A stretch of 28,078 bases of DNA, from contig JAYSVQ010000023.1 in the NCBI GenBank assembly GCA_043718485.1, forward strand, positions 1 through 28,078, given 5' to 3'. The notes under the pieces were generated by a model. The model made no database searches and was not told where the DNA came from. It saw only the letters and a list, made by a program, of their open reading frames with translations. The position numbers and the translations under genes are program-made. Position 1 is the stretch's first letter. Each line of letters opens with the position of its first letter. Shown piece after piece: positions 2,819-26,662 of this stretch. Origin of the DNA: Bacteroidota bacterium. GTDB taxonomy: Bacteria > Bacteroidota > Bacteroidia > J057 > JADKCL01.

Positions 2819-4078
2819 TTGAATAAAAAAATTTTAATCGTTTCTTTTAGTTTCCCTCCCTACCCCGGTATTGGCGGGAGGCGATGGGCAAAATTTGCAA
2901 AAGCACTTTGTCACCTCGGATATGATGTTTTTGTGCTTTCTGCACAAGCACCAAAAGGCGCTACATCGGAATGGACAAAAGACATAGAGGGACTAAAACT
3001 AAAACGATATTTTTTCAAAGATCGCTATCCAAGGGTCTTAATTCAACCTGCTCAACATTTGGGTGACCGAATTTGGTTTAAGGTTCTTACTTTTTTGCTC
3101 TCCCTTTTCACAAAAGGAAATTATTTTGATCGCAGTTTTTTCAACAAAAAGGAGATAAAACAAATTACAGAAAAAATAATTAAAGAAAATGAAATCGAAA
3201 CGGTCATTGCTTCCGGAGGGCCGTTTCATATGCTGTATAGTTTGGCTCAATTGAAACAAATTCAAACAACCCTTAACTTCATTGTTGACATCAGAGACCC
3301 TTGGGCAAACAATCAAGAATTTTATGGAATGTCTATTTTGCCTGAAAAAAAGAAACAAGAGGAAAAAAGAATGGAGAAATTCGTAATTTCTCAGGCAGAC
3401 ACCGTATTTACCGTGGCAGATGAAATGACCGAATATTTCAGAAAAATAAATGAAAAAGAAAACTTGCAGATTATCACCCTACACAATGGCTTTGACCCTG
3501 CCGATTTTAACTTTGAAACTAAAACTCAAGAATCAGAAAAAACTCGATTTATTTTTGCAGGTAGCTTGTACCCGGGAACTGAGTATGCATGGTTGCCCTT
3601 TCTTCAGGCCCTGCATGATTTGAAGAAAAACTATCCTGACATCGAAGCGCTAATGCAATTTGATTTTTATGGCCAATTACCTCATTCATTTATTAAGCAG
3701 GTAAAAGAATTCAACCTACAATCCATTCAAATTCATGGACAGGTTCCGCTCCTAAAAATTCATGAAGAAATTTCGAAATCCCAATACTGTTTATTGTTTC
3801 TAAACCGCAGCCTTAACTTTTCATTGAGTACAAAATTTTTTGAATATTTAGCCTTTAACAGAATGATTGTGGTTTGCGGAGAAAGTGGAGCGACCTCAGC
3901 CTTTGTAAAAAATAAGGGAATCGGATACGGATTTGAACCTCAAAAAATGCTGCCCGGTTTTCTTGAATTGATGAAGGATTTTGACTCGGGAAAAATACAG
4001 CCCAATGCATCTTTTGACCGCAATACTTTCTCACTGCCAGAAATAACAAAGAAATTGGACGAAATTCTAAAAGGATGA
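2819..4078 (+). CDS. Glycosyltransferase family 4
   Basis: FPPYPGIGGRRWAKF N-terminus, DIRDPW, HNGFD, STKFFEYLA; TTG start; ATGA overlap with next gene. Confidence 0.85.
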   Translation: MNKKILIVSFSFPPYPGIGGRRWAKFAKALCHLGYDVFVLSAQAPKGATSEWTKDIEGLKLKRYFFKDRYPRVLIQPAQHLGDRIWFKVLTFLLSLFTKGNYFDRSFFNKKEIKQITEKIIKENEIETVIASGGPFHMLYSLAQLKQIQTTLNFIVDIRDPWANNQEFYGMSILPEKKKQEEKRMEKFVISQADTVFTVADEMTEYFRKINEKENLQIITLHNGFDPADFNFETKTQESEKTRFIFAGSLYPGTEYAWLPFLQALHDLKKNYPDIEALMQFDFYGQLPHSFIKQVKEFNLQSIQIHGQVPLLKIHEEISKSQYCLLFLNRSLNFSLSTKFFEYLAFNRMIVVCGESGATSAFVKNKGIGYGFEPQKMLPGFLELMKDFDSGKIQPNASFDRNTFSLPEITKKLDEILKG

Positions 4079-5368: not shown

Positions 5369-6289
5369 ATGAAAAAAATTAACCTATTGATTGCATGCCT
5401 GATTGTTTTGGTTTTTAGCCATTGCAGCAAGGACCTTTATCCTTTAAAATTTAACCCCCAATCCGGTGTTTCCTACAAGTTCACAAGCAAATTAACACAA
5501 GTCATTGCCCAAGAAATGATGGGCCAAAAAGTGAATATGGAACAAAAAATGGGGTTTGAGTATTTATTTAAAATAATTGATGCCCCAGCTGGCGGAGATG
5601 CTTCCATCGAAGTAACCTACAGCCGAATTACCCTGGACGTTGATAATGAAATGATGAAAATACATTTCGACTCAGACAATATTAAACCCGAAGACAATGA
5701 TAATGCAATGGTTGCCGTTTTTTCGGCTTTAAAAGGGGTACAATATAATATGGTTGTGGGTCAAGATGGTAGCGTAAAAAAAATGGAAGGCCTTGAGAAA
5801 ATGATAAGCCAAATGGTTGAATCTCTCGGTGCTGTCAGCAAGTTGAGCGAGGCCGAAATAGAGGAAATGCATCAAACCATGAAGAATGAATACTCTGAGG
5901 AAAAATTAAGAAATCAAATGGAAAACACTTTTCGTATTTTCCCGCCTAAAGACGTTGGTGTTGGCGATAAATGGACGCTCAACAAGAAAATTGACGGCAT
6001 AGTTCCCATCGATTCCGAAACGCATTACCAATTAAAATCGCTTGATGAAAGTTTTGCGATTATTGACATGGAATCAGAATTTGACACAAAAGAAGAAGTA
6101 GACATACAAGGAATGAAAGCAAAATTGAAAGGAAAGCAATCTGGTTTTTTCAAGGTAGATAAAGAAAGTGGATTTATTATGGAATCTACTATGGATCAAG
6201 AATTTTCCGGAAACATGGAAATGATGGGAATGTCGATTCCCTTGAGCATTAAATCAACCATGTTAATGACTTCGGAAAAATTAAAGTAA
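5369..6289 (+). CDS. DUF6263-like exported/lipoprotein
   Basis: Start moved to MKKINLL (ATG 5369); signal peptide ending FSH-C; beta-rich Met/Glu-rich body resembling Bacteroidota DUF6263 proteins (recognition only). Confidence 0.6.
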   Translation: MKKINLLIACLIVLVFSHCSKDLYPLKFNPQSGVSYKFTSKLTQVIAQEMMGQKVNMEQKMGFEYLFKIIDAPAGGDASIEVTYSRITLDVDNEMMKIHFDSDNIKPEDNDNAMVAVFSALKGVQYNMVVGQDGSVKKMEGLEKMISQMVESLGAVSKLSEAEIEEMHQTMKNEYSEEKLRNQMENTFRIFPPKDVGVGDKWTLNKKIDGIVPIDSETHYQLKSLDESFAIIDMESEFDTKEEVDIQGMKAKLKGKQSGFFKVDKESGFIMESTMDQEFSGNMEMMGMSIPLSIKSTMLMTSEKLK

Positions 6290-19517: not shown

Positions 19518-20024
19518 CTAATCAATTCTTACGAAAATCTTTCGTCTGTGCGCCTTACCATCAGAACTAAAATACTTAAAAATCACCGAGGCTTTTCCTT
19601 TTGCTTTTCCTGTTTTTACTTCCAAATCTAACTCGCCAAGTTCATTTGCCTGATATTTGGTTTTGGTAAGACCAACTCCCACCTTCTCCAGCTCCATTTC
19701 AATCCAAGATTGAGGCAATAATTGTTTCACCTGAATACTCATCACCTTATTTCTATAGGCTACAAAATCCTCTGAAATTTTTTTCTCTTTTCCGTCAATA
19801 ATAATTTTTACCTCAGGGAATTTCGCTACGACGGGTCGCGGTGTCTGACTTTCCCATTGTTCATCTTCGTCTCCATCTTCCAAATCTTCTTGATCATCGG
19901 GCACACCATTCATATTCTTGTCGCCTTCTTTTTGATCTCTTAAATCAGGGCGTTGCGCACTTACACGGGCTCCGAAAAAAAGGCCCAATGCAAAAAGAAA
20001 AAAAGTCAATCTCAGAATCTTCAT
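19518..20024 (-). CDS. Hypothetical secreted protein
   Basis: Start MKILRLTFF (ATG 20024); signal peptide ending VSA-Q; acidic linker then beta-rich domain. Confidence 0.7.
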   Translation of the reverse strand: MKILRLTFFLFALGLFFGARVSAQRPDLRDQKEGDKNMNGVPDDQEDLEDGDEDEQWESQTPRPVVAKFPEVKIIIDGKEKKISEDFVAYRNKVMSIQVKQLLPQSWIEMELEKVGVGLTKTKYQANELGELDLEVKTGKAKGKASVIFKYFSSDGKAHRRKIFVRID

Positions 20025-20137
20025 ACAAATTACTACGATGAAATTAAGCAAAAATTGAGCCTGAATGAAAAAACCTTCCAAAATCATCAGATTTCAATTA
20101 ATTTGAAGAAATTGCAAGCGCTTACCTTATTTGTTTA

Positions 20138-21850
20138 GTGAAGATGATTAAGAAATTCTACTCCATTTCATTCCTGTTCCTTTGGTTTGCCGGCTCGGGA
20201 TGCAGCCAAAAAGGTGAGCCTCCAAAGCCGCAACAAGATTGCAAAGGAATGGTAGTAAGTGCGCACCCGGAAGCCAATCGGGTTGGAATTTCGATTTTAG
20301 AAAAAGGGGGAAATGCAGTGGATGCCGCAATCGCAGTTCATTTTTCTCTTGCTGTTTGCGCTCCCTTTGCAGGCAATATTGGCGGAGGCGGATTCATGAT
20401 GATTCGAGATTCCTCAGGCCAATTTTATTCGCTTGACTTTAGGGAAGTTGCAGGAAGCATGGCAAAAAAAGAAATGTATTTGGATGCGAAAGGCAACGTT
20501 ATTCCAGGGAAAAGTACCGAAGGCCAAAGCGCAAGTGGGGTACCCGGATCTGTTGATGGAATGTGGAAGGCACATCAGAAATTGGGAAGCCTTTCATGGC
20601 AGGAATTGGTTGCGCCCTCAATACAATTGGCGAAAAATGGTTTCGCAATTACCAAGCAACAAGCCGATGAAATGAATTCCCTGCAAGAGAGTTTTAAAAA
20701 AAATAATGTGAATAAAAAGGCTTGTGTTTTTATTCGAGAAAAAAAATGGCAAAAGGGAGATGTTTTAATTCAAGAAGACTTAGCGGAAACGCTTGAGGAA
20801 ATTCAGGAAAAAGGTAGAGATGGGTTTTACACCGGACCCGTTGCTGAGAAAATAATTTTTGAAATAAATCGAGGAAAAGGCAGTTTCAACCTTGAGGATT
20901 TAAAAAATTATTCAGCTGTTTGGAGAAGCCCTTTAATCGGAAAATATAAAAATTACTCAATAATTACGATGGGTCCGCCCAGTGGTGGTGGCTTTAGCTT
21001 ATTACAAATGCTGGGCATGACCGCGCATTTTCCAATGCGGGAGTGGGGAAAAGACTCTGCACTTTCCTATCACCTTATGATCGAAGCAATGCGCCAAGCA
21101 GCATGCGACAGAGTCCATTTTGCCTCAGACCCAGATTTTAATTCAGTGCCCATAGCGGAGCTATTAGATTCAAATTATTTAAGAAACAGAATTTCTGCTT
21201 TTGACCCACACAAAGCAATTGCATCTGACAAAATTTCACATGGAAATGTTTCAGAAGAATCAGAAGAAACCACCCATTTTTCTGTAGTTGATCGCTGGGG
21301 AAATGCAGTTTCGGTAACTACGACGCTCAATTCATGGTACGGTTCCAGGGTCGTGGTTGAGGGTGCCGGATTTTTGCTCAACAACGAGATGGATGATTTT
21401 GCGAGTAAACCCGGTGCGCCCAATCTTTACGGTTTAGTCGGGAGTGAAGCAAATGCGATTGCCCCTAAAAAACGAATGGTAAGTTCGATGACGCCCTGCA
21501 TTTTAGAAAAAGATGGAAAATTATTTCTCGTGATTGGCACACCGGGAGGAACCACCATCCCCAGTCAGATTTTTCAGGCCTTGGTGTATTTGATTGATTT
21601 TGATATGTCATTGCAGGATGCCATTAACAAACTGCGATTCCATCATCAATGGTTACCCGATAAAGTATTTATTGAAGAGGGTGCCTTTTCACCTGAAATT
21701 TTCAATTCACTTTCCCAAAAGGGCCATGTAATAGAAAAAAGATCCTCCTTTGGCAGAATAGATGCGATTTTAGTGCATCCTAATGGCAGTCTTGAAGGGG
21801 GAGCTGATTATATGCGAGGGGATGATGCTTCTGAATGTCAACAGAAATGA
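20138..21850 (+). CDS. ggt: Gamma-glutamyltransferase (lipoprotein signal)
   Basis: GGNAVDAAIA, GNIGGGGF, DFRE, catalytic ETTHFSVVD, LLNNEMDDF, SSMTP, GTPGG motifs. Confidence 0.97.
   Translation: MKMIKKFYSISFLFLWFAGSGCSQKGEPPKPQQDCKGMVVSAHPEANRVGISILEKGGNAVDAAIAVHFSLAVCAPFAGNIGGGGFMMIRDSSGQFYSLDFREVAGSMAKKEMYLDAKGNVIPGKSTEGQSASGVPGSVDGMWKAHQKLGSLSWQELVAPSIQLAKNGFAITKQQADEMNSLQESFKKNNVNKKACVFIREKKWQKGDVLIQEDLAETLEEIQEKGRDGFYTGPVAEKIIFEINRGKGSFNLEDLKNYSAVWRSPLIGKYKNYSIITMGPPSGGGFSLLQMLGMTAHFPMREWGKDSALSYHLMIEAMRQAACDRVHFASDPDFNSVPIAELLDSNYLRNRISAFDPHKAIASDKISHGNVSEESEETTHFSVVDRWGNAVSVTTTLNSWYGSRVVVEGAGFLLNNEMDDFASKPGAPNLYGLVGSEANAIAPKKRMVSSMTPCILEKDGKLFLVIGTPGGTTIPSQIFQALVYLIDFDMSLQDAINKLRFHHQWLPDKVFIEEGAFSPEIFNSLSQKGHVIEKRSSFGRIDAILVHPNGSLEGGADYMRGDDASECQQK
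21743..21850 (+). repeat. Direct repeat copy 1 (functional 3' end of ggt)
   Basis: 101/108 nt identical, ungapped, to 23823-23930; 45-nt exact core 21749-21793. Confidence 0.95.
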
Positions 21851-21906
21851 TTCTGTTTGAATTGCCTGGGGATGTCATTGCTTTATACTTCCTGTTTGCC
21901 ATAATA

Positions 21907-22851
21907 TTATATAAGCTCCAATTGCCTATATCTTTTTTCAAGCAAATCACGATAAGCCGTTTTCATTTCTTTTGACAGGAAGGAACGATCGATCCAATCA
22001 AATGCACTTGATTTATTCTTTATCATTCGATTGAAGGCACCTTGCATCTGTTTAGAAGTCATGCCCAATTCTTCTCCTAACTGTTCAAAATGCGCTCGTT
22101 TCAACTTCCTTTTCTTTCCAACTAAGGTCAATGCAAGCTCCTCAGCATCTTCCGGGAACACAATTGCAACATTTAAAAGATCGTATGCAGGAGACAATAC
22201 CCAACCAGAAGGACTTTCAACCATTGAAAAGTTTTTCAGGTGCATATCACTATTTCCAGTTAGGAAGGAGAACAGCGCTAAGTCAAAGTAAAAAGTTTTA
22301 TCAAGCAAGGTGTTGCCCGAATAGCTGTCCAATGCTTTACCCACTTTCTCCATTGAACCTTTGTACTTATCAAACGCTTCTGTGATTTGGAACATATCAA
22401 TCATGTGTATTTTTTCGCCAGCTTCATTCCGATCCACTCGCTTCGTGATATAAGACAACTCTCCAGATGATAATCGAATTAATGAAGAAGGTACTACACG
22501 AATTCCAAAAGATTCTGCGATTCGCATGGTTACATGCTCGTTTTCGGGCATTTCGGAAAATCTATCTGAAGGGGGTTTAAAAATATAATATCCACCTAAT
22601 ACCCCAACTACAGTTAACCGTGCATCTGAACTCTCCTTACTTTTTTTAATTAGTGACATAGACAGTTTTGGCTGAACACCCGGGACGGCAACACTTCTTT
22701 CAACCACCACTTTTGCAAGTTCATTCATTTGGTCAAATGAATATTCCATTCTTGGAGGCATTGGTGTTCCAAAGAATGCCATTGAACATCTTTGGTGAAA
22801 TTCCAGTTTGTCTTCAACCCGTTTATAACAATATAAACATCTATGCTCCAT
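21907..22851 (-). CDS. HipA C-terminal-domain kinase toxin (HipT-like)
   Basis: Gly-loop PGVQPKL, YIFKPP, ENEH, ITKRVDR, catalytic GNSDMHLKN, LSPAYDLL; lacks the HipA N-subdomain. Confidence 0.9.
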   Translation of the reverse strand: MEHRCLYCYKRVEDKLEFHQRCSMAFFGTPMPPRMEYSFDQMNELAKVVVERSVAVPGVQPKLSMSLIKKSKESSDARLTVVGVLGGYYIFKPPSDRFSEMPENEHVTMRIAESFGIRVVPSSLIRLSSGELSYITKRVDRNEAGEKIHMIDMFQITEAFDKYKGSMEKVGKALDSYSGNTLLDKTFYFDLALFSFLTGNSDMHLKNFSMVESPSGWVLSPAYDLLNVAIVFPEDAEELALTLVGKKRKLKRAHFEQLGEELGMTSKQMQGAFNRMIKNKSSAFDWIDRSFLSKEMKTAYRDLLEKRYRQLELI

Positions 22852-23176
22852 CTTCTTCTGTTATTAGCACCACACTCACCGCACCGATACAATTCTGACA
22901 ACATGCCAGAAGTAATCCCATGCGATCATTTTTATTGATCTTCCAGTTCTCGGAAGCTATTTCTAACAACCATCCTTCAGGAATTAATCCCTCAAAAAAT
23001 GGGAAGAGTCGTTTCTCTGTATAGGGTTTAACTGTAACGGGCATAGTGAACGTGATGAAATCATGAGGATGGTCTTTTACGTATTGATCATCATATTGAA
23101 ATACATATTCCCCCTCATTCGTTTCCGTAAGGATTCCGGCCAAATGGATTTTATAAAAAACTCTTCCCTGTCTCAC
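22841..23176 (-). CDS. HipA N-terminal-domain protein (HipS-like antitoxin)
   Basis: 111 aa; AGILTE, YVFQYD, LFPFFEGLIPEGWL, CIGAV typical of the coupled HipA N-domain; overlaps both neighbours. Confidence 0.88.
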   Translation of the reverse strand: MRQGRVFYKIHLAGILTETNEGEYVFQYDDQYVKDHPHDFITFTMPVTVKPYTEKRLFPFFEGLIPEGWLLEIASENWKINKNDRMGLLLACCQNCIGAVSVVLITEEDGA

Positions 23177-23382
23177 TCATTCAGATTTTTACTATCAACA
23201 GGGGCCAGTTCATGTCCAAACATGTGAAGAACCAGATTAACTTTATCCATATTCAGATTCGTTTTATCCTGTTCAATTTTTCGTATTACAGTGAGTGCAA
23301 CTCCTGCACGATCTGCGAACTCTTTTTGAGTCAGATTAACTTCCTTTCTCCGGTCTTTGACAAACTCAGCCAGGGGCTTCAT
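23173..23382 (-). CDS. XRE-family HTH regulator (HipB-like)
   Basis: 69 aa; RRKEVNLTQKEFADRAGVALTVIRKIEQ HTH; ATGA overlap with the hipS-like gene; alternative start 23391. Confidence 0.88.
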   Translation of the reverse strand: MKPLAEFVKDRRKEVNLTQKEFADRAGVALTVIRKIEQDKTNLNMDKVNLVLHMFGHELAPVDSKNLNE

Positions 23383-23480
23383 TATATGCATTTGAATATA
23401 AAACTTAGCAAAGTTAGCTTTTTATATGCAAATACATATAGTTTCGCTAAAAAATATCTTTTTATATGCTAAAGCATATA
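23383..23480. promoter_or_regulatory. Three palindromic operators TATATG-N6-CATATA
   Basis: 23383-23400 (1 mismatch), 23423-23440, 23463-23480; the third extends to a perfect 11-2-11 palindrome (23460-23483). Confidence 0.8.
23409..23416 (-). promoter_or_regulatory. Bacteroidota -7 promoter element for the hipBST-like operon
   Basis: TAACTTTG(C) on minus strand, between operators 1 and 2. Confidence 0.7.
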
Positions 23481-23691
23481 AAAGGTAATCAAAAAAAATA
23501 GTTCTAATGACCGAAGACATTTCTAATGTGCTAAATTTCACTATTTTATAGCTATTAGCCTCGTACCAAAGGAAAAATATAAAGCGTGCTCGATGTTAAC
23601 GTTTGCCTAACTCGGTTCATAAATCAAAGTTTATTACCTGTTGTGTAAGGCCGATGCGGGTTATCTATTTTCCGAATTTTACATTCAAAGC

Positions 23692-23822
23692 GTAACCCTC
23701 CACATAAGTCCGTCTTGCTAATTCAATTTATTCTTTTTTGCAGTTTATGGCAAAAGTTTTTCAATTCGATTAAGAGTGTGATTAGCAATTTTTGTGAAGA
23801 TGGCTCGAAATCAAAAAAATGG
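23692..23822 (-). mobile_element. IS66-family right-end relic (TnpC C-terminus plus IRR)
   Basis: Minus frame PFF*FRAIFTKIANHTLNRIEKLLP* resembles the IS66 TnpC C-terminus (P..WL..VL.RI.DHP.NRI.ELLP); followed by a GTAA-type terminal repeat GTAACCCTCCACATAAGTCCGTC at 23692. Confidence 0.7.
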
Positions 23823-23930
23823 TCCTCATTTGGCAGAATAGATGCGATTTTAGTGCATCCTAATGGCAGTCTTTAAGGGGGCGCTGATTAAATGTGAGGG
23901 GATGATGCTTCTGAAGGTCAACAGAAATAA
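23823..23930 (+). pseudogene. Direct repeat copy 2: degenerate ggt 3' fragment
   Basis: 7 substitutions vs 21743-21850, three of them creating stop codons in the ggt frame. Confidence 0.9.
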
Positions 23931-24038
23931 TGCTGGTTAACTTAGGTCATGTATAGGAAAGTGCGGTTTTCTTTACACGTTCACTTTGACGTACAAAGAT
24001 TCTGAGCGTTTTCTTTACATGCTTCTATCTCGCAATTG

Positions 24039-24818
24039 CTATGCTTCATTTTCTTTAACCTTGAAAGATTTTTTGAACTGTTCAAAAACGCTATTTGGAT
24101 TGATAGTACCCAATCCCATTTCCTTGAAAATAGCTTTATCTGGCAAGTCACTTGCGGTCAATACTGCAAACTGATTAATATGGGCTTGAATCGTTTCAGG
24201 CAAATCAAATTCTGATTCAGGAGTGAGCATAACTGTTAATCGAAACACATCCGCTTTATGTTTTCTCAACTGCTTCGCATCTTCTTTGCCACCCCTTTCA
24301 ATTCTTTCTTTGATTTCCAAAAAAGCTTTTGCTTTTAAACTTATCAATGCTTCGATACTTGCATAGTGAAGGCCATCGTCCACCTTACTATTGTCAATCA
24401 TGTAATTATAATAGTCATCATTCAGCAAAATGGCGGATAGGCTAGAAAGGTCATCATCGATTGGAATCGGTGTGAGATGCGCCTCACTATCCAAAATAAT
24501 CATATCAGGTGTTCTTGAGAAAAGCTCTATTTGATGCGGGAAGGCGGCATTTTCAGGTTTTATGAATCGATAATATTCTCTTTCGTCATTACTTTTTTCT
24601 CGTTGCTGATATTTACCATCATTGATGAATTGCCAAAACTGCTTTACGAATTCTTTACTTAATGCTTCTACAACCAAAATTATGTCAATATCTTTTGTGG
24701 CTCTTGGAATAAATCCAGCTTCATCAATGATGATATCGCAGGCAGTGCCGCCAATAATCACGTAATTATTGGGATAATGCTCAAAGTATTTTTTAAAAAT
24801 GTCTAATCCTCTTACCAT
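24039..24818 (-). CDS. AbiEii-like (Pol-beta superfamily) nucleotidyltransferase, putative toxin
   Basis: IIGGTAC...RATKDIDII matches the GG.A...R.T.D.D motif; 7-nt overlap with the upstream gene. Confidence 0.75.
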   Translation of the reverse strand: MVRGLDIFKKYFEHYPNNYVIIGGTACDIIIDEAGFIPRATKDIDIILVVEALSKEFVKQFWQFINDGKYQQREKSNDEREYYRFIKPENAAFPHQIELFSRTPDMIILDSEAHLTPIPIDDDLSSLSAILLNDDYYNYMIDNSKVDDGLHYASIEALISLKAKAFLEIKERIERGGKEDAKQLRKHKADVFRLTVMLTPESEFDLPETIQAHINQFAVLTASDLPDKAIFKEMGLGTINPNSVFEQFKKSFKVKENEA

Positions 24819-25822
24819 ATATATTTTTCCAATAACTGCTTTAATGCCATTTCAACCCTTTCATCTCTTGTATCTTTAACGCTTAGGTAAAGAGAAAGTG
24901 GATCTACTGCATTCAAATCATTGGGTAATTCGCCCACTAAATTCAACGGGTTATATTTCCAGATTTCCAGGACAAATCGGCCCTCGTATTCATTCAGGGT
25001 CACCAAGGCATTTCTTTTCTTCAGGCTATAGAACGCTGATTTCTCAATTGCAAAGTATTGCTGATTGCTTGGATTCAGGTCAGTATATTCCGGCAGCGCA
25101 GATGCGTTACTTTGCAAAAGGCTGACCTCCTCTGGCTTTTCATCTACGAAAACCGTTTTTAACACCGGGTTCACCAGCAGGTTTTTTTGATGGGCAATGT
25201 TCCACAACTCATTTCTATCGTATTTAAAACGGATAAACTTTTCCTTTTCGCCCTGTACCTCTACCCATTCATGATGCTTTAAATTGTCAATGGCATTGGT
25301 AATCGCCATTGGCGTGTAATCAAATTTTTGGGCGATTTCTTTGAATGAATGTTCTTCGAGTTTCCAATTATTGTTACGATGGAGGATGTGGTAAATCAAC
25401 AAGAACTGAGCAGATGGCAATAGCTTTTCATTTTTTTGCTTCGCCTTAGGATGGGTGTAGCTTTCTCGTAAATCAACCATCAAGTCAGGCAAGTAAAGTT
25501 GTTTGCCGGGTACGATAAAATTGATGCCTTTTTCAATCAGTCTCTTACGTTTGTATGCCTGTATATTTTCAAACACCACCACAACTTTCTGGTTCAATAA
25601 ATCTTTAATTTGTTGTACCTGCTTTTCAGTTTGATGAATACTCAGTTCCTTATCGTTTTTCAATTCGGCCAGAATGATTTCGGTATTGAAAAATTCGGTT
25701 TTGTATAGTTTATAGGTTTCGTGGATATACAAAGGCAGCCTGTCCAGATTGCTTTTGGCTATGGGTGTTGTTGTAGCCTGAATACCCAGCGTTTCCAGAA
25801 TATATTTTAGTGCTTCCTTCAC
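24812..25822 (-). CDS. Winged-HTH protein, putative AbiEi-like antitoxin/regulator
   Basis: 336 aa, GTG start; central HTH SFKEIAQKFDYTPMAITNAIDNL; C-terminal VDPLSLYLS; coupled to the nucleotidyltransferase. Confidence 0.65.
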   Translation of the reverse strand: MKEALKYILETLGIQATTTPIAKSNLDRLPLYIHETYKLYKTEFFNTEIILAELKNDKELSIHQTEKQVQQIKDLLNQKVVVVFENIQAYKRKRLIEKGINFIVPGKQLYLPDLMVDLRESYTHPKAKQKNEKLLPSAQFLLIYHILHRNNNWKLEEHSFKEIAQKFDYTPMAITNAIDNLKHHEWVEVQGEKEKFIRFKYDRNELWNIAHQKNLLVNPVLKTVFVDEKPEEVSLLQSNASALPEYTDLNPSNQQYFAIEKSAFYSLKKRNALVTLNEYEGRFVLEIWKYNPLNLVGELPNDLNAVDPLSLYLSVKDTRDERVEMALKQLLEKYIW

Positions 25823-25832
25823 TTTATGCCTG

Positions 25833-25895
25833 ATAATAAAGCATATTATGCTCGATAAAGTTATTTAATTTATTATGCAACAATAGCTTTATTAT
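25833..25895. promoter_or_regulatory. Inverted repeats upstream of the wHTH gene, putative operator
   Basis: ataataaagc (25833-42) / gctttattat (25886-95); palindrome agcata-t-tatgct (25840-52); TATTATGC twice; near-consensus -7 TAACTTTA (minus, 25856-63). Confidence 0.45.
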
Positions 25896-25903
25896 TTTGG
25901 TTT

Positions 25904-26662
25904 TCAAAAGACAATACACTTATTCACCTCAAAAAATTCATGCTCGTTCCTTTGCACATAGCCTAACTGATTGGTAATGAGCTTTGTATTGCCTATGCTG
26001 AACGCTGGGGTGTTGAAATGGTGGTGGCCATAAACCCAATAGGCAATGCCGGATGCTTCAACCAAATCATACAACTCTACGGCAAAAGCTTCATTCAGCA
26101 CACTGCCTTTGTATTGCTCGGGATAGTTTAGAAAAGTAGGGCAGTGGTGTGTGAAAACAGCTAACTTTTCACCATTTGTTGCACACATTTCGTTTTGAAT
26201 ACATGCAAGACTCTCTTCATGCAATTGGTTATACTGCTCTACTGAAAAGCGAAAGCCGTTATGCCTGATTAAATGAAAATCGTTTAGATTCTTTTCTACT
26301 TCCCACTGGTGTCCCAGACTGATTTTGCTCCAAAGGGTAGAGAAAATCAGTTTGGCATTTTTATAATTCACAGAGGTGTTGTTCACTAGAAAAACATTGC
26401 TGCGGATTTTCTCATGCAGCACACCACTTTTTTCAGCTATTTCAAAATGGTAATACTCATGATTACCGGGTAGCCAATACGTGCGCTCAAAATGATCAGA
26501 GACAAAAGTGAAAAAGTCCTTGTGCTTGTCCATCACTGCAAAAGGAACTACATCACCCGCAAGCACCAATACCTCAGCCACTGGCTGCAAAGGATGTAAC
26601 TTTAAGAAATTTTTGTTGGCAGGAAATTCCAGATGGAGGTCGGAGGCGTATTGAAGTACCAT
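25904..26662 (-). CDS. Calcineurin-like metallophosphoesterase
   Basis: All five metal-binding motifs: DLH, GD, GNHE, THH, GHHH. Confidence 0.9.
   Translation of the reverse strand: MVLQYASDLHLEFPANKNFLKLHPLQPVAEVLVLAGDVVPFAVMDKHKDFFTFVSDHFERTYWLPGNHEYYHFEIAEKSGVLHEKIRSNVFLVNNTSVNYKNAKLIFSTLWSKISLGHQWEVEKNLNDFHLIRHNGFRFSVEQYNQLHEESLACIQNEMCATNGEKLAVFTHHCPTFLNYPEQYKGSVLNEAFAVELYDLVEASGIAYWVYGHHHFNTPAFSIGNTKLITNQLGYVQRNEHEFFEVNKCIVF

What the first reader, a model, noticed from the sequence alone, without database searches (positions are those of the whole stretch)
21743..23930. 2080-bp unit bracketed by a 108-bp duplication of the ggt 3' end: integrase-free TA islet
21743-21850 recurs at 23823-23930 (101/108 identical, no gaps), with weaker similarity for about 10 nt past the stop. 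Between the copies lie only the hipBST-like operon, its control region and an IS66 relic. Duplication of a gene 3' end is the established signature of site-specific integration that restores the target gene. ggt is not a target I recognise, and no recombinase is present. It may be a satellite or cassette mobilised in trans, or excised by homologous recombination and held in place by the TA system (inference).
Basis: partly seen in the sequence, partly recalled or inferred. Interest (0 to 1): 0.8.

Follow-up and report, generated by a model that had tools for sequence, protein, structure and literature searches.

The report
Toxin-antitoxin cassette duplicating ggt's tail
A three-gene hipBST toxin-antitoxin cassette sits just behind the ggt gene between two copies of ggt's last ~130 bases with no recombinase gene nearby, an example of a known but unexplained way in which 'addictive' genes enter genomes.

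Summary
Copy A is the true tail of an intact ggt. Copy B is a dead fragment with three in-frame stops.

Between the copies lie an intact hipB-hipS-hipT operon with three HipB operators, about 200 nt of unassigned DNA, and the ~110-nt end of an IS66-like element. The 28-kb window holds no integrase or transposase gene.

The cassette is horizontally acquired. HipT has 77-83% identical relatives across Bacteroidota, while the nearest ggt among 5.8 billion proteins is 59% identical. That also means no relative is close enough for an empty-site test.

The architecture recurs. Repeats bracket hipBST in about 20% of other loci I examined, against 1 of 344 control windows. The targets differ (hemL tail plus terminator, a ferredoxin gene tail, a PBP1C tail), although some bracketing repeats are dispersed repeats rather than target copies.

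The closest known phenomenon is 'insertion with long target duplication', described for restriction-modification genes (Nobusato 2000; Furuta 2010); its mechanism is unknown. Earlier reports of this scan noted the same hipBST architecture on other DNA (argG, rplT terminator, btuC). This locus is an old, fixed insertion, with no sign of present mobility. Verdict: real, a new member of a known kind, moderately interesting.

The parts
20138..21850 (+). ggt (gamma-glutamyltransferase), intact, 570 aa; target gene whose tail is duplicated
   Evidence: Pfam PF01019 5e-157 over profile 2-510/512; NCBIfam TIGR00066 1e-161
21735..21863 (.). Repeat copy A: last 116 nt of ggt including the stop, plus 13 nt downstream
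21864..21906 (.). 43-nt spacer between copy A and the hipT stop; not conserved among related cassettes
21907..22851 (-). hipT, HipA C-terminal-type Ser/Thr kinase toxin, 314 aa, convergent with ggt
   Evidence: Pfam HipA_C 8e-43; Legionella HipT 7vkb/8ezr E 6e-43 over the full length, catalytic DMHLKN stretch present
22841..23176 (-). hipS, 111 aa, homologue of the HipA N-terminal subdomain; overlaps hipT by 11 nt
   Evidence: Pfam Couple_hipA 1e-24; TIGR03071
23173..23391 (-). hipB, HTH repressor, 72 aa (an in-frame ATG at 23382 may be the true start); overlaps hipS by 4 nt
   Evidence: Pfam HTH_3; TIGR03070 couple_hipB 70.2 bits, cut-off 71.65; sequence read
23383..23480 (.). Three 18-nt palindromic operator-like sites (TATATGC-N4-GCATATA type) spaced 40 nt apart; homology to other hipBST cassettes ends at about 23484
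   Evidence: repeats D3, D11 and I4; sequence; homology boundary 23481-23484 shared by 17 other loci
23485..23691 (.). Unassigned non-coding DNA; no match in the own genome or in other hip loci
23692..23810 (+). Left-end relic of an IS66-like multicopy element, truncated within 12 nt of copy B. The 60-nt core 23714-23773 is 97% identical to the live element; the flanks are about 60-67% identical.
   Evidence: Logan contig at depth 58 against about 7 for the chromosome, with loose ends; a complete IS66-family element in own contig C560 has a similar GTAAGCC terminus
23815..23943 (.). Repeat copy B: decayed duplicate of the ggt tail with three in-frame stops, followed by the native downstream flank
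24039..24818 (-). First gene beyond the islet, 259 aa, no family match; the right-hand flank

Best explanation
A horizontally acquired hipBST toxin-antitoxin cassette (three HipB operators, hipB, hipS, hipT; about 1.6 kb, window ~21883-23484) was inserted 13 nt behind the ggt stop codon without any element-encoded recombinase. The event left two copies of the ggt tail. The copy joined to ggt keeps the enzyme whole; the distal copy is junk and has decayed. Later an IS66-like element landed between the cassette and the distal copy and was mostly deleted, which probably also trimmed that copy.

This is the architecture called 'insertion with long target duplication'. My preferred mechanism is an inference, not a demonstration. 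Incoming DNA carrying the cassette next to a homologous ggt tail circularised and recombined once, through host homologous recombination, with the resident tail (Campbell-type integration). That automatically gives tail-cassette-tail.

The module is then retained because loss of a HipT kinase/HipS antitoxin pair is expected to harm the cell. The same 129-nt repeats could in principle loop the unit out as a 2080-bp circle.

Shown: the repeat, the intact genes, the absence of recombinase genes, the foreign origin of the cassette, and the recurrence of the architecture elsewhere. Inferred: the order of events, the recombination route, and the addiction.
For: Repeat and anatomy.
No integrase or transposase in the 28 kb.
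Cassette foreign to the lineage: HipT has thousands of relatives at 77-83% identity in several Bacteroidota groups (Flavobacteriaceae, Cytophagales, Cyclobacteriaceae, Bacteroidales records), while the best ggt relative in the same database is 59% (56% among genomes).
A discrete unit: homology to 17 other loci stops at 23481-23484, 19 at 23477-23484, and near the hipT stop. Many metagenome contigs are just the ~1.6-2.0-kb cassette, including the 1980-nt Logan contig of this locus.
Recurrence: bracketing direct repeats occur in 7 of 29 and 5 of 29 genome loci and in 8 of 40 metagenome loci, against 1 of 344 control windows.
Two-copy, target-derived cases: the hemL tail plus terminator in two complete genomes, a ferredoxin gene tail in four genomes, and L146, whose repeat has only two copies in its genome but whose target gene I did not identify.
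Orientation: in the window and in the hemL and ferredoxin cases the intact gene converges on hipT and the fragment lies upstream of hipB.
For recombination at pre-existing homology rather than de novo duplication: some bracketing repeats are whole units of dispersed repeats. One locus has three copies of a PBP1C tail delimiting two successive cassettes. The fragment in G298 is no closer to its own hemL tail than to other species' tails.
Precedent: restriction-modification units inserted with 46-423-bp target duplications and no mobility genes, mostly in naturally competent species (PMC2853133).
Against: No empty-site allele exists for this lineage, so it is not shown that the two copies derive from one target.
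The left end of copy B abuts a truncated IS relic, so the repeat's extent may be secondary.
The differences are spread evenly along the repeat, with no donor/recipient mosaic.
A first association of the cassette with a ggt tail still needs an illegitimate event.
No circle junction or 2080-nt skip was seen, though only contigs were available.
Toxicity and addiction are untested.
Part of the recurrence signal comes from dispersed repeats and from related genomes that share one event, so the number of independent target duplications among the genome loci is small: three besides the window (hemL, the ferredoxin tail, L146). Repeats in metagenome loci (for example the PBP1C tail) could not be checked for uniqueness.
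Confidence: 0.55

Rival explanations
1. De novo long target duplication. Foreign linear DNA was joined illegitimately at two staggered positions of the target, either at widely spaced nicks or by template switching at a stalled fork near the end of ggt. The roughly 130 nt between the joints was therefore copied on both sides. No homology was carried by the incoming DNA.
For: The targets are unrelated unique sequences at different loci (ggt, hemL, a ferredoxin tail, a PBP1C tail). Cassette ends share no terminal motif. The restriction-modification precedent is described as 'long and variable' target duplication. Any first arrival at a new gene needs an illegitimate step.
Against: It does not explain repeats that coincide with whole dispersed-repeat units. 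It does not explain repeated use of the same tail in an accretion array. No microhomology at the joints could be assessed, because the empty site is unknown.
Confidence: 0.2
2. Remnant of a site-specific integrative element (CIME-like). An element with a tyrosine or serine integrase and a ggt-tail attP integrated into ggt. The integrase and the rest of the element were later deleted, perhaps through the IS66-like element, leaving the toxin-antitoxin module between attL and attR. It could still be mobilised in trans.
For: Duplication of a gene's 3' end that restores the gene is the classical footprint (established knowledge). A truncated IS relic lies exactly where an integrase gene would be expected, abutting copy B. 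There is a 45-nt identical core. Accretion of cassettes at one tail elsewhere resembles att-site accretion.
Against: No integrase is present in 28 kb. In the other loci the cassette is flush with both repeats, leaving no room for lost genes. The targets differ from lineage to lineage for one small cassette family. None of 74 ggt loci has a tail copy.
Confidence: 0.12
3. Leftover of a replacement or of a former tandem ggt pair. Either an incoming segment carrying ggt plus hipBST replaced most of the resident ggt by homology on one side and an illegitimate joint on the other, or a second tandem ggt copy was mostly deleted. In both cases only the last ~130 nt of the old gene survive.
For: Tandem ggt paralogues exist in some Flavobacterium loci. 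The left edge of copy B coincides with a deletion-like joint to a truncated IS. The 9% divergence could be donor against recipient.
Against: It needs more steps. Tandem ggt paralogues elsewhere are only 70-75% identical. It does not explain the same architecture at hemL and other genes that are not tandemly duplicated.
Confidence: 0.08
4. Assembly artefact. The 45-nt identical run was mis-resolved in a metagenome assembly, and the cassette is not really between two ggt tails in one molecule.
For: The genome is a 575-contig MAG. Logan contigs break inside the identical run, so they give no independent linkage.
Against: The copies differ at 11 positions on both sides of the run. Depth is even. 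The alternative linkage would give ggt a premature stop. The same architecture exists in single-contig finished genomes (G130, G298, G138).
Confidence: 0.05

Closest known systems
Insertion with long target duplication of restriction-modification gene complexes (Nobusato et al. 2000, Gene 259:99; Furuta et al. 2010, NAR, PMC2853133)
   Same: A small 'addictive' gene unit with no mobility gene, flanked by direct repeats well over 30 bp that are copies of the target. The repeat often overlaps the 3' end of a neighbouring gene. Repeat length varies from case to case, and the mechanism is unknown.
   Different: The cargo is a kinase toxin-antitoxin operon, not restriction-modification genes, so double-strand breakage by the cargo (the authors' suggestion) cannot be the common cause. 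No empty-site genome is available here, which was their defining test.
HipBST tripartite toxin-antitoxin systems of E. coli O127:H6 and Legionella pneumophila (PMC6581861, PMC10627512, PMC9325769; PDB 7vkb, 8ezr, 7ab3)
   Same: The gene order is hipB-hipS-hipT with overlapping genes. HipT is a HipA C-terminal-type kinase, HipS corresponds to the HipA N-terminal subdomain, and HipB is an HTH protein.
   Different: Only sequence membership was tested here. The target of the kinase and neutralisation by HipS are unknown for this Bacteroidota subfamily. A full-text term search of the one HipA-family phylogeny paper I checked (PMC8262856) found no mention of direct repeats or flanking; the other HipBST papers were not searched for this.
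Cis-mobilisable elements (CIMEs): integrase-less remnants of integrative elements flanked by attL and attR, as at the 3' end of fda in Streptococcus thermophilus (from my own knowledge, not checked here)
   Same: A short unit without a recombinase, flanked by repeats at the 3' end of a housekeeping gene that stays intact.
   Different: CIME repeats are att sites of a known integrase family and the target is constant. Here no integrase or att core is identified, and the targets vary between lineages.
Campbell-type single-crossover integration of a circular molecule by homologous recombination
   Same: It gives exactly homology-insert-homology, with repeat length equal to the homology carried, and it can reverse to a circle.
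   Different: It is known mainly from laboratory suicide plasmids. Its use by natural toxin-antitoxin cassettes is an inference.

Membership tests
HipBST tripartite toxin-antitoxin module | HipT: kinase of about 300-335 aa consisting of the HipA C-terminal domain only, with the catalytic loop | tested here: met
   Pfam HipA_C 7.6e-43. Full-length alignment to Legionella HipT 7vkb, E 6.4e-43, with the DMHLKN and YDLLN stretches conserved.
HipBST tripartite toxin-antitoxin module | HipS: separate protein of about 100 aa homologous to the HipA N-terminal subdomain, encoded just upstream of hipT | tested here: met
   Pfam Couple_hipA 9.8e-25 and TIGR03071 4.5e-27. The gene overlaps hipT by 11 nt.
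HipBST tripartite toxin-antitoxin module | HipB: HTH protein encoded first in the operon, with palindromic operators upstream | tested here: met
   HTH_3 5.6e-10. TIGR03070 scores 70.2 bits, just under its 71.65 cut-off. Three 18-nt palindromes are spaced 40 nt apart.
HipBST tripartite toxin-antitoxin module | HipT is toxic (phosphorylates an aminoacyl-tRNA synthetase) and is neutralised by HipS | not testable with these tools
   Needs expression and rescue assays.
Insertion with long target duplication (criteria of Furuta et al. 2010) | Direct repeats longer than 30 bp flank the inserted unit | tested here: met
   129 nt at about 90% identity.
Insertion with long target duplication (criteria of Furuta et al. 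2010) | Insert under 20 kb with no mobility gene or other mobile element responsible | tested here: met
   The unit is 2080 nt with no integrase or transposase in the unit or the window. The only mobile DNA is a terminal IS relic of about 110 nt without a gene.
Insertion with long target duplication (criteria of Furuta et al. 2010) | Both repeats align to one single-copy target in a related genome that lacks the insert | not testable with these tools
   The nearest ggt is 59% identical. There is no close genome, and contigs of four runs show no skip.
Insertion with long target duplication (criteria of Furuta et al. 2010) | The repeat is unique to the locus, not a dispersed repeat | tested here: met
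   Only two copies are present in the 72.64%-complete MAG. One copy is coding sequence of ggt.
Site-specific integrative element or CIME | Integrase in the element, or a known integrase family that uses this att site | tested here: not met
   No recombinase in the window. No integrase was sought genome-wide for this site.
Site-specific integrative element or CIME | The same gene tail is used recurrently as an attachment site in other genomes | tested here: not met
   None of 74 Bacteroidota ggt loci with at least 1 kb downstream carries a ggt 3'-fragment copy. Hits were terminator hairpins or full tandem paralogues.
Site-specific integrative element or CIME | Excised circular form or empty site detectable | tested here: inconclusive
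   No 2080-nt skip or circle joint was found in contigs of four runs. Contigs drop rare variants, and raw reads were not available.
IS66-family composite transposon | Two IS copies, or at least two IS ends, flank the cargo, with an 8-bp target duplication | tested here: not met
   A single truncated end lies on one side only, and no second end is present.

The most novel reading that the evidence does not exclude
hipBST cassettes, and perhaps addiction modules in general, may be a class of recombinase-gene-free mobile units. On this reading they travel together with a copy of their target's tail or of a dispersed repeat ('portable homology') and integrate through the host's own recombination. 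They would pile up at the same tail, and they would be enriched among survivors because cells that fail to integrate them are poisoned. The ggt islet would be one fossil of that life cycle.
Probability: 0.3. Interest if true: 0.8.

Novelty: new member of a known kind. Interest (0 to 1): 0.5.

Why it matters
How toxin-antitoxin modules reach their scattered chromosomal sites without transposases or integrases is poorly understood. This locus, together with the survey made here, indicates that hipBST cassettes often arrive with a long duplication of the neighbouring gene's tail. That is the same footprint the Kobayashi group described for restriction-modification genes.

Those two kinds of module share only the ability to punish their own loss. 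This points to selection for integration, or a host recombination route, rather than an activity of the cargo. The idea is testable with a marked hipBST circle that carries a target tail, in recA-proficient and recA-deficient hosts.

For this particular genome the consequence is small: ggt stays intact and the insertion is old.

Tried and rejected
Empty site in relatives. A DNA search of 41 related genomes found nothing above about 73% identity. ggt loci from 80 genomes are at most 56% identical. The best ggt among 5.8 billion proteins is 59%, and its contig is not syntenic. The exact ggt protein is not on record.

Reads. The four runs of one sediment study that hold the locus are kept only as Logan contigs. 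They show no 2080-nt skip or circle joint, and the contigs break inside the 45-nt identical run, so they neither confirm nor refute linkage.

ggt tail as a general attachment site. Rejected for 74 loci.

Composition. There is no GC or skew step at the islet borders.

Promoter and terminator scan. No better than shuffles.

RNA genes or tRNAs in the repeats. None.

Plasmid or phage carriers. Only seven plasmids carry a HipT relative, at 41-48% identity, and no phage does.

Clean filled-versus-empty comparison for a second unique-repeat case (L146 in G330). The left flank turned out to be a multicopy element and the other genomes carry rearranged or scarred sites, so this was abandoned.

Short bracketing repeats of 30-41 nt were first counted as duplications. 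At least L105 is a dispersed hairpin repeat and L114 is a 107-nt repeat with 35 copies, so these are not target duplications.

Tree-like comparison of hemL-tail copies. One fragment is closest to its own partner (96.6%), while the other is equidistant from many species. This is not decisive between gene conversion, independent events and donor-derived fragments.

Full report
OBSERVATION

The repeat is real. The repeat finder reports one outstanding direct repeat in 20000-25500: 21735-21863 against 23815-23943, 129 nt, 90% identical, ungapped, start-to-start 2080 nt (alignment). Similarity runs 13 nt beyond the stop and then stops. On the left it stops sharply at 21735/23815, and the longest identical run is 45 nt.

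Copy A is the last 116 nt of an intact gamma-glutamyltransferase gene (20138-21850; Pfam 5e-157, NCBIfam equivalog 1e-161). Read in the ggt frame, copy B differs from copy A at six positions in sense codons, and three of these make stop codons. Under uniform substitution that has P of about 0.0013. Copy B is therefore a dead fragment.

The sequence occurs only twice in the MAG, which has 2.8 Mb, 575 contigs and 72.64% completeness.

WHAT LIES BETWEEN THE COPIES

On the minus strand lie three genes:
- hipT, 21907-22851 (HipA_C).
- hipS, 22841-23176 (Couple_hipA).
- hipB, 23173-23391 (HTH).

They overlap by 11 and 4 nt. HipT aligns over its full length to Legionella HipT (7vkb, E 6e-43) with the catalytic loop intact.

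Upstream of hipB are three 18-nt palindromes of the TATATGC-N4-GCATATA type, 40 nt apart.

Homology to other hipBST loci begins at 23481-23484 in 17 loci (19 at 23477-23484) and ends at or just after the hipT stop. The conserved unit is therefore about 1.6 kb: operators, hipB, hipS and hipT.

The remaining 330 nt up to copy B are extra:
- 23485-23691 matches nothing.
- 23692 to about 23810 is the left end of a multicopy element.

For that element, a 60-nt core is 97% identical to the end of own contig C54 and to a Logan contig at depth 58, against about 7 for the chromosome. Its terminus starts GTAAGCC, like the inverted repeats of a complete IS66-family element in own contig C560.

'IS66 relic' is therefore reasonable, but it is only a terminal stub. 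It ends within 12 nt of copy B. The left edge of copy B may thus be a deletion joint, and the original duplication may have been longer (inference).

No integrase, resolvase or transposase gene exists anywhere in the window, which otherwise holds housekeeping genes: asnB, a glycosyltransferase, DAHP synthase/chorismate mutase, the ccm genes, ggt and purB.

IS IT AN ARTEFACT?

Probably not.
- Depth is even, and the same organism is present in four runs of one study.
- Logan contigs cover 21764-23743, 23718-23873 and 23844-26131. They break inside the 45-nt identical run, so they do not prove the linkage.
- The alternative linkage would truncate ggt.
- The same architecture is present in single-contig genomes.

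ORIGIN OF THE CASSETTE

HipT has thousands of relatives at 77-83% identity, in records labelled Flavobacteriaceae, Cytophagales, Cyclobacteriaceae and Bacteroidales. The best ggt relative in the same 5.8-billion-protein collection is 59% identical; among one genome per species it is 56%.

The cassette is therefore far more widely shared than the host's own gene, which points to horizontal transfer. Contigs of the four runs show no 2080-nt skip.

IS THE ARCHITECTURE PECULIAR TO THIS LOCUS?

No.

Genomes. Of 29 other hipT loci from a 400-genome sample of the phylum, seven had a direct repeat bracketing the operon. Of a further 29, five did.

Metagenomes. Of 40 metagenome loci with enough flank, eight did.

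Control. Windows of the same geometry cut from 80 ggt loci gave 1 of 344.

The clearest cases:
- Two complete genomes of one genus, where 206-213 nt comprising the tail of hemL (Aminotran_3) plus its terminator flank hipBST.
- Four genomes of another genus, with 66-90 nt of the tail of a small ferredoxin gene.
- A 150-nt repeat that occurs only twice in its genome.
- A metagenome locus where the tail of a PBP1C-type gene occurs three times and delimits two successive cassettes.

In the window and in the hemL and ferredoxin cases, the intact gene converges on hipT and the fragment lies upstream of hipB. The cassette is flush with the repeats, 12-60 nt from the hipT stop and 0-30 nt from the first operator.

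In the hemL genus of 26 genomes the site is polymorphic:
- Four genomes have hipBST.
- One has a hipT remnant.
- Four have a 'scar' in which the genes are deleted but the operators and the hipT tail remain.
- At least five have a clean single hemL tail.

Many metagenome contigs are just the cassette (1.5-2.0 kb), which suggests that assemblies break at both of its ends.

CAVEATS ON RECURRENCE
- Genomes of one genus share one event.
- Some bracketing repeats are not target copies. One 41-nt repeat is a dispersed hairpin element. One 107-nt repeat has 35 copies in its genome. Three metagenome loci share one repeat family.

Independent unique-target duplications among the genome loci therefore number three besides this one (hemL, the ferredoxin tail, L146). 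The metagenome cases, such as the PBP1C tail, could not be checked for uniqueness.

MECHANISM

The footprint matches 'insertion with long target duplication'. [quoted passage not shown] A full-text term search of the one HipA-family phylogeny paper I checked (PMC8262856) found no mention of direct repeats or flanking.

I favour integration by host homologous recombination of a circularised fragment that carried the cassette beside a homologous tail. The reasons:
- Bracketing repeats elsewhere sometimes coincide with whole dispersed-repeat units.
- The same tail is reused in an accretion array.
- One hemL fragment is no closer to its own partner than to other species' tails.

A de novo duplication at staggered joints remains possible, and it is needed anyway for the first arrival at a new gene. 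A decayed integrase-bearing element is less likely, for three reasons. The cassettes are flush with their repeats in many lineages. The targets differ between lineages. ggt tails are not duplicated in 74 other loci.

A leftover of gene replacement or of a tandem ggt pair needs more steps and does not explain the other loci.

AGE AND ACTIVITY

The locus shows about 9% divergence between the copies, three stops in copy B and a decayed IS. This is an old, fixed insertion. Nothing shows that it moves today, although 129-nt repeats with a 45-nt identical run could support occasional loop-out. Retention by addiction is inferred from the family, not tested.

COMPARISON WITH EARLIER NOTES OF THIS SCAN

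After I had reached this reading, a look-up showed earlier reports of the same architecture on other DNA:
- hipBST between copies of the argG tail in a Treponema.
- hipBST between copies of the rplT terminator in a Bacteroidota-type bacterium, with empty strains.
- hipBST behind the tail of a small gene in an Ignavibacteria genome.
- Stacked cassettes at the btuC tail.

Some of those reports named the same closest known phenomenon. They are unchecked leads and not independent evidence, but they agree with the survey made here.

VERDICT

It is a new member of a known, mechanistically unexplained kind, and of moderate interest.

Noticed in passing
window 23823-23930: Of six substitutions in the 35 sense codons of the dead ggt-tail copy, three create in-frame stop codons (GAA>TAA, TAT>TAA, CGA>TGA). 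That is P of about 0.0013 under uniform substitution. In the hemL case (L123) the fragment also begins with a stop in the old frame. Either AT-biased decay or selection against translating the fragment could explain this.
   Followed up: partly
window 23692-23810; own genome C54:21757-21854; C560:100-2460: A multicopy IS66-like element ends contig C54 and has Logan depth about 58 against 7 for the chromosome. A complete but different IS66-family element with GTAAGCCATCCG termini sits on contig C560. The relic in the window has a 97% identical 60-nt core flanked by stretches only 60-67% identical, an odd mosaic.
   Followed up: partly
window 24039-25822 (minus strand): Two overlapping genes (259 aa and 336 aa) directly beyond the islet have no Pfam, NCBIfam or PADLOC family apart from a weak MarR-like stretch, and lie in a lower-GC stretch (0.33-0.38). 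They may be another acquired unit at the same site.
   Followed up: partly
L164, L166, L170, L172 (genomes G444, G441, G110, G394), downstream of hemL: These are 'scars' of hipBST. The three genes are deleted internally, but the operator region and the ~70 nt after the hipT stop remain, sometimes with the hemL-tail fragment. In these genomes loss occurred by internal deletion, not by recombination between the flanking repeats.
   Followed up: partly
L212:2022-2080, 3809-3867, 5741-5781: Three copies of the tail of a PBP1C-type gene delimit hipBST and a second two-gene unit. This looks like stepwise accretion of cassettes at one gene tail.
   Followed up: no
L114 (G422:C28) and 34 other places in G422: A 107-nt dispersed repeat (35 matches at 78-100% identity) flanks hipBST on both sides in direct orientation. 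It is a MITE- or REP-like element that I did not characterise.
   Followed up: partly
L231:1511-2297: A second small gene pair sits inside the same repeat bracket as hipBST. Its second product ends in a sequence that reads like the C-terminus of a PIN-domain VapC toxin (my reading of the ORF translation; no family search was run). If so, two toxin-antitoxin modules lie in one bracket.
   Followed up: no
window 23380-23391: hipB has two in-frame ATG codons, at 23391 and 23382. By comparison with a related cassette (L105), the second, which abuts the third operator, is probably the real start (69 aa rather than 72).
   Followed up: no
metagenome loci L195, L197, L210, L243, L245, L264, L272 and others: Many public metagenome contigs carrying close HipT relatives are 1.5-1.7 kb long, that is, exactly the cassette. 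Assemblies seem to break at both of its ends, as expected if flanks are repeated or differ between co-occurring strains.
   Followed up: no
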